Assembly: GCA_964016885.1 (NCBI GenBank)
Contig: OZ024742.1
Span: 53,258,001-53,322,000, forward strand
Length of the DNA stretch: 64,000 nucleotides
From: Eledone cirrhosa
Lineage: Eukaryota
Reading direction: 5' to 3'
Positions within the stretch are counted from its first letter, which is position 1. Every line of letters starts with the position of its first letter. A program made the translations under genes and the position numbers. Of this stretch, positions 27,652 through 33,692 are shown one piece after another. A model generated the notes under the pieces. That model saw only the letters and a list, made by a program, of their open reading frames with translations, had not been told where the DNA came from and searched no databases.

Positions 27652-28287
27652 TATAAGTATGTACACGTACATACATATATGTATACCGACGTACAGTAGT
27701 ATGTATATATATATATATACATACATGCACACATATATATATGCACGTATGGATTCACCGAACATTTATTATAATGCTCGGTGTGTTTGTAAACAAACAT
27801 CCCGTATTAAGCCGTAGTGTCTAGCAACCACCGTTGCTCGTTTGTTCAACACTGACAAAGGAACGCTGTACTAGTTTCAAGCTTGTTAGCTATCGTCAGC
27901 AACGTATACCTTCCTGCCAGATTGTTGAACGTATATACTTACCTTATGCATATTAACGGCTGAGTAGCCCAATATGCATATCGAGTGGGTTAATCGGCCG
28001 GGTGCACCGAAAACGATAAACGGAAAAAATGAAACGATATTTCATTTCCCACTCTTAGTACGGCTGTTACTTAAATATAAGTATGTACACGTACATACAT
28101 ATATGTATACCGACGTACAGTAGTATGTATATATATATATATACATACATGCACACATATATATATGCACGTATGGATTCACCGAACATTTATTATAATG
28201 CTCGGTGTGTTTGTAAACAAACATCCCGTATTAAGCCGTAGTGTCTAGCAACCACCGTTGCTCGTTTGTTCAACACTGACAAAGGAA
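27652..28287 (-). repeat. Inverted arm (about 1.5 units) of the 424-bp HHR array
   Basis: Reverse complement of the array unit; HHR at 27863-27905; joins the + arm at aggaa (28283-28287). Confidence 0.95.
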
Positions 28288-31200
28288 GGTATACGTTGCT
28301 GACGATAGCTAACAAGCTTGAAACTAGTACAGCGTTCCTTTGTCAGTGTTGAACAAACGAGCAACGGTGGTTGCTAGACACTACGGCTTAATACGGGATG
28401 TTTGTTTACAAACACACCGAGCATTATAATAAATGTTCGGTGAATCCATACGTGCATATATATATGTGTGCATGTATGTATATATATATATATACATACT
28501 ACTGTACGTCGGTATACATATATGTATGTACGTGTACATACTTATATTTAAGTAACAGCCGTACTAAGAGTGGGAAATGAAATATCGTTTCATTTTTTCC
28601 GTTTATCGTTTTCGGTGCACCCGGCCGATTAACCCACTCGATATGCATATTGGGCTACTCAGCCGTTAATATGCATAAGGTAAGTATATACGTTCAACAA
28701 TCTGGCAGGAAGGTATACGTTGCTGACGATAGCTAACAAGCTTGAAACTAGTACAGCGTTCCTTTGTCAGTGTTGAACAAACGAGCAACGGTGGTTGCTA
28801 GACACTACGGCTTAATACGGGATGTTTGTTTACAAACACACCGAGCATTATAATAAATGTTCGGTGAATCCATACGTGCATATATATATGTGTGCATGTA
28901 TGTATATATATATATATACATACTACTGTACGTCGGTATACATATATGTATGTACGTGTACATACTTATATTTAAGTAACAGCCGTACTAAGAGTGGGAA
29001 ATGAAATATCGTTTCATTTTTTCCGTTTATCGTTTTCGGTGCACCCGGCCGATTAACCCACTCGATATGCATATTGGGCTACTCAGCCGTTAATATGCAT
29101 AAGGTAAGTATATACGTTCAACAATCTGGCAGGAAGGTATACGTTGCTGACGATAGCTAACAAGCTTGAAACTAGTACAGCGTTCCTTTGTCAGTGTTGA
29201 ACAAACGAGCAACGGTGGTTGCTAGACACTACGGCTTAATACGGGATGTTTGTTTACAAACACACCGAGCATTATAATAAATGTTCGGTGAATCCATACG
29301 TGCATATATATATGTGTGCATGTATGTATATATATATATATACATACTACTGTACGTCGGTATACATATATGTATGTACGTGTACATACTTATATTTAAG
29401 TAACAGCCGTACTAAGAGTGGGAAATGAAATATCGTTTCATTTTTTCCGTTTATCGTTTTCGGTGCACCCGGCCGATTAACCCACTCGATATGCATATTG
29501 GGCTACTCAGCCGTTAATATGCATAAGGTAAGTATATACGTTCAACAATCTGGCAGGAAGGTATACGTTGCTGACGATAGCTAACAAGCTTGAAACTAGT
29601 ACAGCGTTCCTTTGTCAGTGTTGAACAAACGAGCAACGGTGGTTGCTAGACACTACGGCTTAATACGGGATGTTTGTTTACAAACACACCGAGCATTATA
29701 ATAAATGTTCGGTGAATCCATACGTGCATATATATATGTGTGCATGTATGTATATATATATATATACATACTACTGTACGTCGGTATACATATATGTATG
29801 TACGTGTACATACTTATATTTAAGTAACAGCCGTACTAAGAGTGGGAAATGAAATATCGTTTCATTTTTTCCGTTTATCGTTTTCGGTGCACCCGGCCGA
29901 TTAACCCACTCGATATGCATATTGGGCTACTCAGCCGTTAATATACATAAGGTAAGTATATACGTTCAACAATCTGGCAGGAAGGTATACGTTGCTGACG
30001 ATAGCTACAAGCTTGAAACTAGTACAGCGTTCCTTTGTCAGTGTTGAACAAACGAGCAACGGTGGTTGCTAGACACTACGGCTTAATACGGGATGTTTGT
30101 TTACAAACACACCGAGCATTATAATAAATGTTCGGTGAATCCATACGTGCATATATATATGTGTGCATGTATGTATATATATATATATACATACTACTGT
30201 ACGTCGGTATACATATATGTATGTACGTGTACATACTTATATTTAAGTAACAGCCGTACTAAGAGTGGGAAATGAAATATCGTTTCATTTTTTTCCGTTT
30301 ATCGTTTTCGGTGCACCCGGCCGATTAACCCACTCGATATGCATATTGGGCTACTCAGCCGTTAATATGCATAAGGTAAGTATATACGTTCAACAATCTG
30401 GCAGGAAGGTATACGTTGCTGACGATAGCTAACAAGCTTGAAACTAGTACAGCGTTCCTTTGTCAGTGTTGAACAAACGAGCAACGGTGGTTGCTAGACA
30501 CTACGGCTTAATACGGGATGTTTGTTTACAAACACACCGAGCATTATAATAAATGTTCGGTGAATCCATACGTGCATATATATATGTGTGCATGTATGTA
30601 TATATATATATATACATACTACTGTACGTCGGTATACATATATGTATGTACGTGTACATACTTATATTTAAGTAACAGCCGTACTAAGAGTGGGAAATGA
30701 AATATCGTTTCATTTTTTCCGTTTATCGTTTTCGGTGCACCCGGCCGATTAACCCACTCGATATGCATATTGGGCTACTCAGCCGTTAATATGCATAAGG
30801 TAAGTATATACGTTCAACAATCTGGCAGGAAGGTATACGTTGCTGACGATAGCTAACAAGCTTGAAACTAGTACAGCGTTCCTTTGTCAGTGTTGAACAA
30901 ACGAGCAACGGTGGTTGCTAGACACTACGGCTTAATACGGGATGTTTGTTTACAAACACACCGAGCATTATAATAAATGTTCGGTGAATCCATACGTGCA
31001 TATATATATGTGTGCATGTATGTATATATATATATATACATACTACTGTACGTCGGTATACATATATGTATGTACGTGTACATACTTATATTTAAGTAAC
31101 AGCCGTACTAAGAGTGGGAAATGAAATATCGTTTCATTTTTTCCGTTTATCGTTTTCGGTGCACCCGGCCGATTAACCCACTCGATATGCATATTGGGCT

Positions 31201-33692
31201 ACTCAGCCGTTAATATGCATAAGGTAAGTATATACGTTCAACAATCTGGCAGGAAGGTATACGTTGCTGACGATAGCTAACAAGCTTGAAACTAGTACAG
31301 CGTTCCTTTGTCAGTGTTGAACAAACGAGCAACGGTGGTTGCTAGACACTACGGCTTAATACGGGATGTTTGTTTACAAACACACCGAGCATTATAATAA
31401 ATGTTCGGTGAATCCATACGTGCATATATATATGTGTGCATGTATGTATATATATATATATACATACTACTGTACGTCGGTATACATATATGTATGTACG
31501 TGTACATACTTATATTTAAGTAACAGCCGTACTAAGAGTGGGAAATGAAATATCGTTTCATTTTTTCCGTTTATCGTTTTCGGTGCACCCGGCCGATTAA
31601 CCCACTCGATATGCATATTGGGCTACTCAGCCGTTAATATGCATAAGGTAAGTATATACGTTCAACAATCTGGCAGGAAGGTATACGTTGCTGACGATAG
31701 CTAACAAGCTTGAAACTAGTACAGCGTTCCTTTGTCAGTGTTGAACAAACGAGCAACGGGTTGCTAGACACTACGGCTTAATACGGGATGTTTGTTTACA
31801 AACACACCGAGCATTATAATAAATGTTCGGTGAATCCATACGTGCATATATATATGTGTGCATGTATGTATATATATATATATACATACTACTGTACGTC
31901 GGTATACATATATGTATGTACGTGTACATACTTATATTTAAGTAACAGCCGTACTAAGAGTGGGAAATGAAATATCGTTTCATTTTTTCCGTTTATCGTT
32001 TTCGGTGCACCCGGCCGATTAACCCACTCGATATGCATATTGGGCTACTCAGCCGTTAATATGCATAAGGTAAGTATATACGTTCAACAATCTGGCAGGA
32101 AGGTATACGTTGCTGACGATAGCTAACAAGCTTGAAACTAGTACAGCGTTCCTTTGTCAGTGTTGAACAAACGAGCAACGGTGGTTGCTAGACACTACGG
32201 CTTAATACGGGATGTTTGTTTACAAACACACCGAGCATTATAATAAATGTTCGGTGAATCCATACGTGCATATATATATGTGTGCATGTATGTATATATA
32301 TATATATACATACTACTGTACGTCGGTATACATATATGTATGTACGTGTACATACTTATATTTAAGTAACAGCCGTACTAAGAGTGGGAAATGAAATATC
32401 GTTTCATTTTTTCCGTTTATCGTTTTCGGTGCACCCGGCCGATTAACCCACTCGATATGCATATTGGGCTACTCAGCCGTTAATATGCATAAGGTAAGTA
32501 TATACGTTCAACAATCTGGCAGGAAGGTATACGTTGCTGACGATAGCTAACAAGCTTGAAACTAGTACAGCGTTCCTTTGTCAGTGTTGAACAAACGAGC
32601 AACGGTGGTTGCTAGACACTACGGCTTAATACGGGATGTTTGTTTACAAACACACCGAGCATTATAATAAATGTTCGGTGAATCCATACGTGCATATATA
32701 TATGTGTGCATGTATGTATATATATATATATACATACTACTGTACGTCGGTATACATATATGTATGTACGTGTACATACTTATATTTAAGTAACAGCCGT
32801 ACTAAGAGTGGGAAATGAAATATCGTTTCATTTTTTCCGTTTATCGTTTTCGGTGCACCCGGCCGATTAACCCACTCGATATGCATATTGGGCTACTCAG
32901 CCGTTAATATGCATAAGGTAAGTATATACGTTCAACAATCTGGCAGGAAGGTATACGTTGCTGACGATAGCTAACAAGCTTGAAACTAGTACAGCGTTCC
33001 TTTGTCAGTGTTGAACAAACGAGCAACGGTGGTTGCTAGACACTACGGCTTAATACGGGATGTTTGTTTACAAACACACCGAGCATTATAATAAATGTTC
33101 GGTGAATCCATACGTGCATATATATATGTGTGCATGTATGTATATATATATATATACATACTACTGTACGTCGGTATACATATATGTATGTACGTGTACA
33201 TACTTATATTTAAGTAACAGCCGTACTAAGAGTGGGAAATGAAATATCGTTTCATTTTTTCCGTTTATCGTTTTCGGTGCACCCGGCCGATTAACCCACT
33301 CGATATGCATATTGGGCTACTCAGCCGTTAATATGCATAAGGTAAGTATATACGTTCAACAATCTGGCAGGAAGGTATACGTTGCTGACGATAGCTAACA
33401 AGCTTGAAACTAGTACAGCGTTCCTTTGTCAGTGTTGAACAAACGAGCAACGGTGGTTGCTAGACACTACGGCTTAATACGGGATGTTTGTTTACAAACA
33501 CACCGAGCATTATAATAAATGTTCGGTGAATCCATACGTGCATATATATATGTGTGCATGTATGTATATATATATATATACATACTACTGTACGTCGGTA
33601 TACATATATGTATGTACGTGTACATACTTATATTTAAGTAACAGCCGTACTAAGAGTGGGAAATGAAATATCGTTTCATTTTTTCCGTTTAT
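28283..33692 (+). repeat. Tandem array of about 12.8 x 424-bp units, each with one hammerhead ribozyme (retrozyme-like)
   Basis: Period 422-425 from the repeated 60-aa ORF marker; units almost identical; ends ccgtttat running into (AT)n. Confidence 0.97.
28293..28335 (+). ncRNA. Minimal type I hammerhead ribozyme, first of 13 (others start 28717, 29141, 29565, 29989, 30413, 30837, 31261, 31685, 32107, 32531, 32955, 33379)
   Basis: acgttg CTGACGA t agct-aaca-agct t GAAA CTAG TA cagcgt; predicted cut after GUA (28329); U.U at the base of stem II is non-canonical. Confidence 0.85.

What the first reader, a model, noticed from the sequence alone, without database searches (positions are those of the whole stretch)
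27652..33692. 6-kb tandem array of 424-bp units, each carrying a hammerhead ribozyme: candidate retrozyme / circRNA system
Seen: what looks like satellite DNA has in every unit acgttg-CUGACGA-u-agcu(aaca)agcu-u-GAAA-CUAG-UA-cagcgu, a minimal type I HHR with palindromic ACUAGU stem III (13 copies on +, 1 on -). Established: Penelope-like elements carry minimal HHRs that cleave as dimers through a palindromic stem III, and metazoan non-LTR retrozymes are tandem HHR repeats that yield circRNAs (work of Cervera and de la Pena). Inference: read-through transcription would self-process to 424-nt monomers that circularise and are reverse-transcribed by a Penelope RT; Penelope RT/GIY-YIG remnants lie on both sides. 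I do not know whether this family is described. Caveat: U.U replaces the usual G-C at the base of stem II.
Basis: partly seen in the sequence, partly recalled or inferred. Interest (0 to 1): 0.93.

Follow-up and report, generated by a model that had tools for sequence, protein, structure and literature searches.

The report
Penelope-mobilised hammerhead retrozyme array
This apparent satellite is one young copy of a non-coding, ribozyme-bearing mobile repeat of a known kind (an animal retrozyme), and its thousands of copies carry the insertion marks of Penelope-like jumping genes, which gives direct genomic support for how such repeats spread.

Summary
Observation confirmed: 13 hammerhead motifs on + at a 424-bp period, 1 on -. 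The motif fits the canonical metazoan type I form, not the 'minimal' PLE form. The U.U pair has a cleaving precedent (axolotl HHR_Amex2). The locus is one two-armed insertion into (TA)n.

The family is large: 2,100 exact cut-site matches and 3,229 exact end matches in the genome. Copies end at two fixed sites, about 221 and 277 nt past the cut. In 62 of 64 two-armed insertions one arm ends at each site. 5' ends are random and do not stop at the cut. This matches the two internal start sites and 'tail' shown for a Penelope RT.

Mutation-free arms reach 20 units. Two loci have private variants fixed in both arms, which favours rolling-circle copying of one RNA (about 55%). Uncut multimer RNA and local DNA amplification are not excluded.

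No RNA data were found, so cleavage and circles are untested. The flanking PLE remnants belong to other families, and the helper is unidentified. Verdict: new member of a known kind, with useful mechanistic evidence.

The parts
26650..27647 (.). (TA)n microsatellite, left half of the insertion target
27648..28287 (-). Inverted arm, 640 nt, one hammerhead (27899-27869). Its 3' end is at the short site (unit position about 217-221, counted from the cut) and runs into (TA)n
   Evidence: 99.8% identical to the + units and shares their (TA)7 allele
28268..28287 (.). 5'-to-5' junction of the two arms, at the complementary strands of the extended hammerhead stem I
28283..33692 (+). Tandem arm: 12 complete cut-to-cut units (422-425 nt) and 13 hammerheads; 3' end at the long site (unit position 277) running into (TA)n
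28293..28335 (+). First type I hammerhead: stem I 28293-28298 with 28330-28335; core CUGACGA 28299-28305; U.U plus 4-bp stem II with AACA loop 28306-28319; GAAA 28320-28323; palindromic helix III; predicted cut after 28329
33633..33692 (+). About 56-60-nt 'tail' between the two fixed 3' end sites, present on this arm only
   Evidence: compare PMC11167929 and PMC8557442
33693..35128 (.). (TA)n microsatellite, right half of the insertion target
1101..1675 (.). Older, short two-armed copy of the same family (277 end on -, 221 end on +; 91-94% identity), hammerhead at 1406-1376
37130..37386 (+). Older fragment of the family (about 83-84%) with a variant hammerhead at 37220-37250
21992..22572 (+). 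Distant relative of the unit (61% over 594 columns); hammerhead 22307-22337 with a G-C closed stem II, HH9 37.7 bits

Best explanation
A non-coding, non-autonomous retroelement of the metazoan non-LTR retrozyme kind, recently active and spread by a Penelope-like element (PLE) protein. Steps: (1) a multi-unit locus is transcribed on the hammerhead strand [inferred]. (2) Neighbouring hammerheads pair through the palindromic helix III and cut out 422-424-nt monomers, which a host ligase closes into circles [inferred from other species, untested here]. (3) A PLE endonuclease/RT, probably a dimer, nicks both strands of a (TA)n microsatellite and starts reverse transcription inside the RNA at two sites about 221 and 277 nt past the cut, one per strand [strongly indicated by the ends of the copies]. 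Internal priming needs no RNA 3' end, so it can work on a circle. (4) Each RT runs through the cut junction for 0-20 turns and stops at random; the two cDNAs are joined 5'-to-5' [read-through shown; the circle is inferred]. My odds: PLE-mobilised retrozyme about 0.9; circle as the template of the long arrays about 0.55.
For: Ends: of 168 arms with the 3' end inside the fetched stretch, 92 end at 277, 62 at 221 and 14 elsewhere; (TA)n follows 88/92, 56/62 and 1/14. Genome-wide exact end-plus-TA patterns give 3,229 and 1,427 matches, controls 0. Two-armed insertions with both ends at a fixed site are one of each in 50 of 51 and 12 of 13 more. The 277 end runs into (AT)n in runs X2, X5 and X6 of two other organisms. 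A co-resident 712-aa Hydra-clade PLE shows the same short/long pairing in 4 of 4 stretches where both ends were detected. A purified PLE protein cuts AT-rich DNA on both strands and starts at two internal sites downstream of its hammerhead, and these sites bound the tail (PMC11167929). Read-through: 6 of 146 5' ends lie within -4..+12 of the cut, 5.9 expected if flat. One template: the two arms agree at all shared subfamily sites in 34 of 48 pairs, shuffled mean 18%, maximum 38%. L038 has 97G+346T in all covering pieces of both arms; the other 10 of 18 exact 346T matches are single and none has this haplotype. L169 has 187G+370C+(TA)7 fixed in both arms. Near mutation-free arms cross 13 (window), 20 (L164) and 8 (L167) cut sites. 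Ribozyme: core invariant and 6 of 13 pairs change on both sides in 10 relatives; the circular monomer folds at -147 kcal/mol, z about -10.8, with stems I and II formed.
Against: No cleavage, expression or circle was observed here. [quoted passage not shown] Only 1 of 9 predicted Xenopus retrozyme dimers cleaved in vitro (bioRxiv 2026). Non-autonomous Chlamys PLEs make multicopy head-to-tail insertions in a clade that mostly lacks hammerheads (PMC8557442). Local DNA amplification is visible in older arrays: L152 alternates two unit types with hybrid ends, and L114 and L039 have higher-order patterns. Young L031 has 286C in 6 of 7 + units but in 0 of 2 - pieces. 14 of 48 arm pairs disagree at one or two sites, and a few arms are mosaics (L064, L060). 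187G, first taken as private to L155, is a small lineage (41 matches). Two pairs break the end rule (L078, L171). No autonomous PLE homologous to the unit was found. The HH9 score is far below threshold.
Confidence: 0.58

Rival explanations
1. Same element and same PLE machinery, but the template is an uncut linear multi-unit transcript (or repeated jumps back onto the same RNA). The hammerhead is slow, protein-assisted or a passenger, and circles, if made, are a by-product.
For: PMC11167929: cleavage not needed, unprocessed RNA dominant. Long arrays that could act as sources exist (window, L164/L165, L168). Mosaic arms and arm-to-arm differences (L031, L064). Multicopy insertions by non-autonomous Chlamys elements. 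Absence of stops at the cut fits this model equally well.
Against: It needs transcripts to survive up to 20 hammerheads whose core is conserved across relatives as distant as 61%. No multi-unit source was found for the L038 or L169 haplotypes among exact matches, though sources could be unassembled or absent from this assembly. New variants become fixed in every unit of daughter arrays, which needs a one-unit bottleneck followed by multiplication.
Confidence: 0.26
2. Insertions are born short (1-2 units), and long arrays, including this one, grow afterwards by unequal crossing-over or slippage, as ordinary satellite DNA.
For: Higher-order repeat patterns in older arrays L152, L114 and L039. 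The 2026 preprint favours local amplification of a PLE terminus. Very long old arrays exist (L039, L041/L042, L114).
Against: Among arms with a fixed 3' end that cross a cut in L031-L065, young arms (at least 98.5% identity, n=14) average 2.9 cuts and old arms (under 96%, n=23) 1.2 (p=0.003). That comparison left out the three long old arrays L039, L041 and L042, whose ends were broken or outside the stretch. Arms of 13-20 units carry almost no substitutions and keep intact ends. Older multi-unit arms keep many unit-specific mutations, so homogenisation is slow.
Confidence: 0.13
3. The array length is an assembly artefact: over-expanded copies of a short repeat between two (TA)n tracts.
For: Units are nearly identical. 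A similar array runs into an assembly gap, with many indels beyond it (L165). No long reads were examined.
Against: Many independent loci show the same architecture with locus-specific haplotypes and periods (422 or 424) on both arms. An artefact could change the count, not the element.
Confidence: 0.03

Closest known systems
Metazoan non-LTR retrozymes (Cervera and de la Pena 2020, PMC7229834): mussel 350-390 bp, coral 220-245 bp, axolotl 330/350 bp
   Same: Tandem non-coding units of a few hundred bp, one type I hammerhead each, GC under 50% (38% here), strongly self-paired predicted circle with the hammerhead free to fold, thousands of copies, co-resident PLEs. The U.U at the base of helix II matches axolotl HHR_Amex2.
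   Different: Circles and cleavage were shown there and are untested here. In the sections read, no fixed 3' ends, inverted arms or (TA)n targeting are reported, and the 2020 review says the repeats show no motif that identifies the helper (PMC7761336).
Retrozymes as non-autonomous PLE derivatives (Li, Clavereau, Pollet, bioRxiv 10.64898/2026.07.22.740005)
   Same: [quoted passage not shown]
   Different: Their evidence is co-occurrence and pLTR homology in Xenopus, with no mollusc sampled. Here the evidence is insertion anatomy, and no homologous pLTR was found.
Endonuclease-positive Penelope-like elements: Poseidon PAc of Anolis (PMC11167929); Hydra and Neptune clades (PMC8557442)
   Same: AT-rich or (TA)n target, 5' truncation, inverted 5'-truncated arm, tail at one end, two start sites downstream of a hammerhead.
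   Different: No ORF (longest ATG frame 60 aa); the whole element is the repeat unit; tail about 56-60 nt rather than 30-40.
Non-autonomous Chlamys elements such as MRC1 of Chlamydomonas (PMC8557442, PMC9940879)
   Same: Non-autonomous PLE parasites with multicopy head-to-tail insertions.
   Different: The clade mostly lacks hammerheads, and those elements resemble their helpers at the 3' end.

Membership tests
Metazoan non-LTR retrozyme | Tandem repeats of about 150-450 bp with a type I hammerhead in at least two consecutive units | tested here: met
   424-bp period, 13 consecutive motifs
Metazoan non-LTR retrozyme | No protein-coding capacity, GC under 50%, no LTR-type structure | tested here: met
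   Longest ATG frame 60 aa, GC 38%; no unique body between repeats. PBS and PPT were not searched for separately.
Metazoan non-LTR retrozyme | Highly self-paired predicted monomer or circle | tested here: met
   Linear z -7.7; circular z about -10.8, and -6.9 without the TA-rich hairpin
Metazoan non-LTR retrozyme | Dispersed to many loci as a mobile element | tested here: met
   2,100 cut-site and 3,229 end matches
Metazoan non-LTR retrozyme | Self-cleavage, and expression as linear and circular monomers | not testable with these tools
   Needs bench work; no RNA holder listed
Canonical metazoan type I hammerhead (definition in PMC4209133) | Core CUGANGA / GAAA / UH; helix I 6 bp, helix II 4 bp, helix III 1-2 bp with a palindromic 2-4-nt loop | tested here: met
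   covariation in helices I and II (10 related sequences, so not independent events)
Canonical metazoan type I hammerhead (definition in PMC4209133) | G10.1-C11.1 pair at the base of helix II | tested here: not met
   U.U here; G-C in 3 of 10 aligned relatives. The same U.U occurs in active HHR_Amex2.
Canonical metazoan type I hammerhead (definition in PMC4209133) | Loop 1 - loop 2 tertiary contact | tested here: inconclusive
   GUA, UC and loop II A residues are invariant in the alignment and match HH9 positions, but the score is below gathering
PLE minimal hammerhead (min-HHR) | Helix II 7-8 bp, helix I 4-5 bp, no helix III | tested here: not met
PLE-mobilised element | Fixed 3' ends with a tail at one end, 5' truncation, inverted arm, microsatellite target | tested here: met
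PLE-mobilised element | Homology to the pLTR of an autonomous PLE | tested here: inconclusive
   None found in the fetched stretches, including 26 Hydra-clade loci; the whole genome could not be screened for it
Autonomous PLE | RT plus GIY-YIG ORF inside the element | tested here: not met

The most novel reading that the evidence does not exclude
The genome holds a countable fossil record of rolling-circle, target-primed reverse transcription. One dimeric Penelope-like protein grips one 422-424-nt RNA circle, primes at two internal sites on the two strands of a (TA)n target, and writes two diverging concatemer arms of up to 20 units in one event. Internal initiation would be what lets PLE proteins copy circles, and satellite-like arrays would be born full-length.
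Probability: 0.45. Interest if true: 0.75.

Novelty: new member of a known kind. Interest (0 to 1): 0.5.

Why it matters
Animal retrozymes are described, but which enzyme moves them and whether circles are the template remain hypotheses: PLEs are called 'a strong candidate' (PMC7229834), and the mechanism 'remains to be elucidated' (2026 preprint). This family links them to the two-start-site mechanism shown in vitro for a PLE. It also offers a young substrate with defined priming sites, near-identical arrays and intact candidate helper ORFs in the same genome, so circle against linear template can be tested directly. I found no paper on a cephalopod retrozyme or on retrozyme insertion ends in 8 searches. 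Repbase and Dfam could not be searched, and two relevant supplements could not be read.

Tried and rejected
Rfam: the whole-window scan listed no hammerhead for the array among the best 150 of 456 matches, and the junction region gave none. The MIR5649 and mir-297 hits reflect the inverted junction and TA repeats. A DNA search of the own genome returned nothing (common words are skipped), so exact patterns were used.

One search used a mis-placed variant (345T instead of 346T). It serves only as a control: 35 scattered, mostly single matches. 187G was tested as private to L155 and rejected. 286C is not fixed in L031, and elsewhere it is scattered or lies in an old array. A pile-up of 5' ends at the cut, expected from cut linear monomers, was looked for and not found. 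In the sample picked by a 277 end, 22 of 39 arms reach 257 nt, 4 stop at 257-287 and 18 pass. Tiny hidden second arms were found for only 6 of 43 unpaired arms.

Neighbouring PLE remnants as parent: rejected, as they have their own hammerheads and ends and no homology. Helper search by shared upstream flanks and by hammerheads downstream of PLE ORF ends found no PLE joined to this unit. Pfam did not recognise the 712-aa protein. Expression: no RNA holder listed, which is no evidence either way; the four runs laid were contigs of unrecorded type. Earlier scan notes for this genome or sequence: none.
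Full report
Observation. The array is real. The hammerhead motif occurs 13 times on + at 422-425-nt spacing from 28299 to 33385 and once on - at 27899. The 12 cut-to-cut units differ at 5 alignment columns in all. The tandem part is 28283-33692. 27648-28287 is an inverted arm joined 5'-to-5', and both outer ends run into long (TA)n tracts. Unit positions below count from the predicted cut (position 1 = 28330).

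The ribozyme. It has a 6-bp helix I with an imperfect extension, the core CUGACGA, U.U plus a 4-bp helix II, GAAA, a 2-bp helix III with a palindromic loop, and UA at the cut. By the definitions in PMC4209133 (passages read) this is the canonical metazoan type I form that works as a dimer, not the PLE min-HHR. Rfam HH9 aligns over all 77 positions but at 19.2 bits (gathering 52); a 61%-identical relative at 22289-22360 scores 37.7. In 10 relatives that I picked from the window and fetched stretches, the core is invariant apart from the free position, 6 of 13 pairs change on both sides, and 90.8% of cells pair against 22-46% for slid controls. These sequences are related, so this is support, not a probability. 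A U.G to G.U swap in helix I also shows as paired variants in runs X2, X5 and X6. The U.U base has a precedent in axolotl HHR_Amex2: 22% cleavage in 1 h as a monomer, much more as a dimer (PMC7229834, parts 2-4 of 6 read). The circular monomer folds at -147 kcal/mol (z about -10.8, 40 shuffles), with helices I and II formed; there is no ORF over 60 aa.

The family. The genome (3.0 Gb) has 2,100 exact matches to a 26-mer over the cut, 3,229 to the 277 end plus TA, 1,427 to the 221 end plus TA, and 637 to a youngest-subfamily marker; reversed controls gave 0. I fetched about 120 stretches around such matches, most from the first third of contig C1, so all tallies are samples. The best named homologue of a neighbouring RT is labelled Octopus vulgaris by its source (68% identity), which suggests a cephalopod host. 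The family and its 277 end also occur in two other coded organisms.

Insertion grammar. Of 168 arms with their 3' end inside the stretch, 92 end at 277, 62 at about 221 and 14 elsewhere; (TA)n follows 88, 56 and 1 of them. Many of these arms were picked by a 277 end, so the ratio is not a genome ratio. Of 61 tail-to-tail pairs, 10 have a broken end. Of the other 51, 50 pair a 221 end with a 277 end and one is 221+221. With local duplicates counted once it is 47 of 48, and 30 of 30 among stretches not picked by an end. Later stretches add 12 mixed pairs and one 277+277: 62 of 64 in all. 5' ends are flat around the unit, with 6 of 146 near the cut against 5.9 expected. This is the PLE pattern: inverted 5'-truncated arm, tail at one end, (TA)n target (PMC8557442, passages and section 11). 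It matches the biochemistry of the Anolis PLE, which cuts both strands of AT-rich DNA and starts at two internal sites downstream of its hammerhead that bound the tail (PMC11167929, parts 1-2 of 4).

The neighbours. 26078-26641 is a fragment of a young PLE family with intact 712-aa ORFs elsewhere. Its RWK, DKT and CxCX5C motifs fit the Hydra clade. It has its own hammerhead at 24849 (-) and its own short and long ends, mixed in 4 of 4 two-ended stretches. 35523-35897 and 41268-43142 are other PLE families (my label: Neptune-like, from the CX4CxxC linker), with hammerhead-like motifs at 35317 and 40810. None is homologous to the unit. They show that helpers exist, not which one acts. The Hydra-clade family is my preferred candidate because it is young, (TA)n-targeted and ends in TTA at both sites like the retrozyme; this is a weak lead.

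Circle or not. Read-through of the cut rules out cut linear monomers as the usual template, unless jumps are near perfect. Arms of one insertion share a haplotype: 34 of 48 pairs agree at all shared diagnostic sites, against 18% on average in 2,000 shuffles. L038 carries 97G and 346T in every covering piece of both arms, and none of the other 10 exact 346T matches has that haplotype. L169 has 187G, 370C and a longer TA run fixed in both arms; the other two multi-unit 187G arrays lack 370C, and 11 short 187G loci were not fetched. Nearly mutation-free arms cross up to 20 cut sites, and young arms are longer than old ones (2.9 against 1.2 cuts, three long old arrays with broken or unseen ends left out). 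All this fits one unit copied many times at insertion.

Against: L152, L114 and L039 show higher-order repeats, so local amplification also acts. L031 differs between its arms, and L064 and L060 are mosaics. The Anolis PLE needs no cleavage and prefers unprocessed RNA. Only 1 of 9 Xenopus dimers cleaved (preprint, parts 1-3 of 5). Non-autonomous Chlamys elements make multicopy insertions in a clade mostly without hammerheads, and two unchecked notes of this scan report ribozyme-free tandem PLE parasites. I put the circle at about 0.55, the uncut multimer at 0.26 and local growth at 0.13.

Comparison and novelty. It works like, and by every sequence-testable feature is, a metazoan non-LTR retrozyme; cleavage and circular RNA are untested. 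The kind, its circles and its PLE link are published (PMC7229834; PMC7761336, passages; bioRxiv 2026). I found no paper on this family, on cephalopod retrozymes or on retrozyme insertion ends. The library lacks most subscription papers. The supplement of PMC7229834 was unreadable and that of the preprint is closed; either may list related repeats. Verdict: new member of a known kind, interest 0.5. The value lies in the two-site end rule and the private-haplotype arrays, which make the standing model directly testable.

Noticed in passing
window 24690-26641 (-); L146-L151: Young, abundant Hydra-clade Penelope-like family with intact 712-aa ORFs, its own type I hammerhead (24849) about 1.2 kb after the stop, and two 3' ends about 85 nt apart; 150 of 150 scored matches at 95-100% identity
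   Followed up: partly
L060 8051-9603: A second, unrelated tandem hammerhead family: 310-bp unit, 4 copies on - and 2 on +, again two-armed
   Followed up: no
window 21992-22572; L059, L117, L118: Distant relatives (61-83%) of the 424-nt unit, some with a canonical G-C closed helix II; better candidates for strong cleavage
   Followed up: partly
756 kb of fetched stretches plus window: 264 type I hammerhead-like motifs with 61 distinct cores, about ten families by eye, several downstream of different PLE ORF ends
   Followed up: partly
L152 (G000:C1:49.58 Mb): Ten-unit arm with an ABAB alternation of 420- and 422-nt unit types differing at about 11 sites: a two-unit circle or local duplication
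   Followed up: partly
window 28676-28685 (unit position about 347-356): Splice-donor-like AAG/GTAAGT just upstream of the hammerhead; PLEs carry introns next to their hammerheads
   Followed up: no
window 12201-15821 (-): Long open frame (about 1,190 aa) with endonuclease, RT and C2H2 fingers, an apparently intact LINE
   Followed up: no
window 35130-35897 (-), 60324-60850 (+), 40490-43142 (-): Neptune-like PLE fragments with their own hammerhead-like motifs (35317, 60324, 40810), ending in (TA)n
   Followed up: partly
window 54131-55322: G-rich 36-bp tandem array, 32 copies, with strong strand skew
   Followed up: no
window 62474-63280 (-): 268-aa frame with a Cys/His-rich finger-like part and two 51-bp repeats; no Pfam hit
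   Followed up: no
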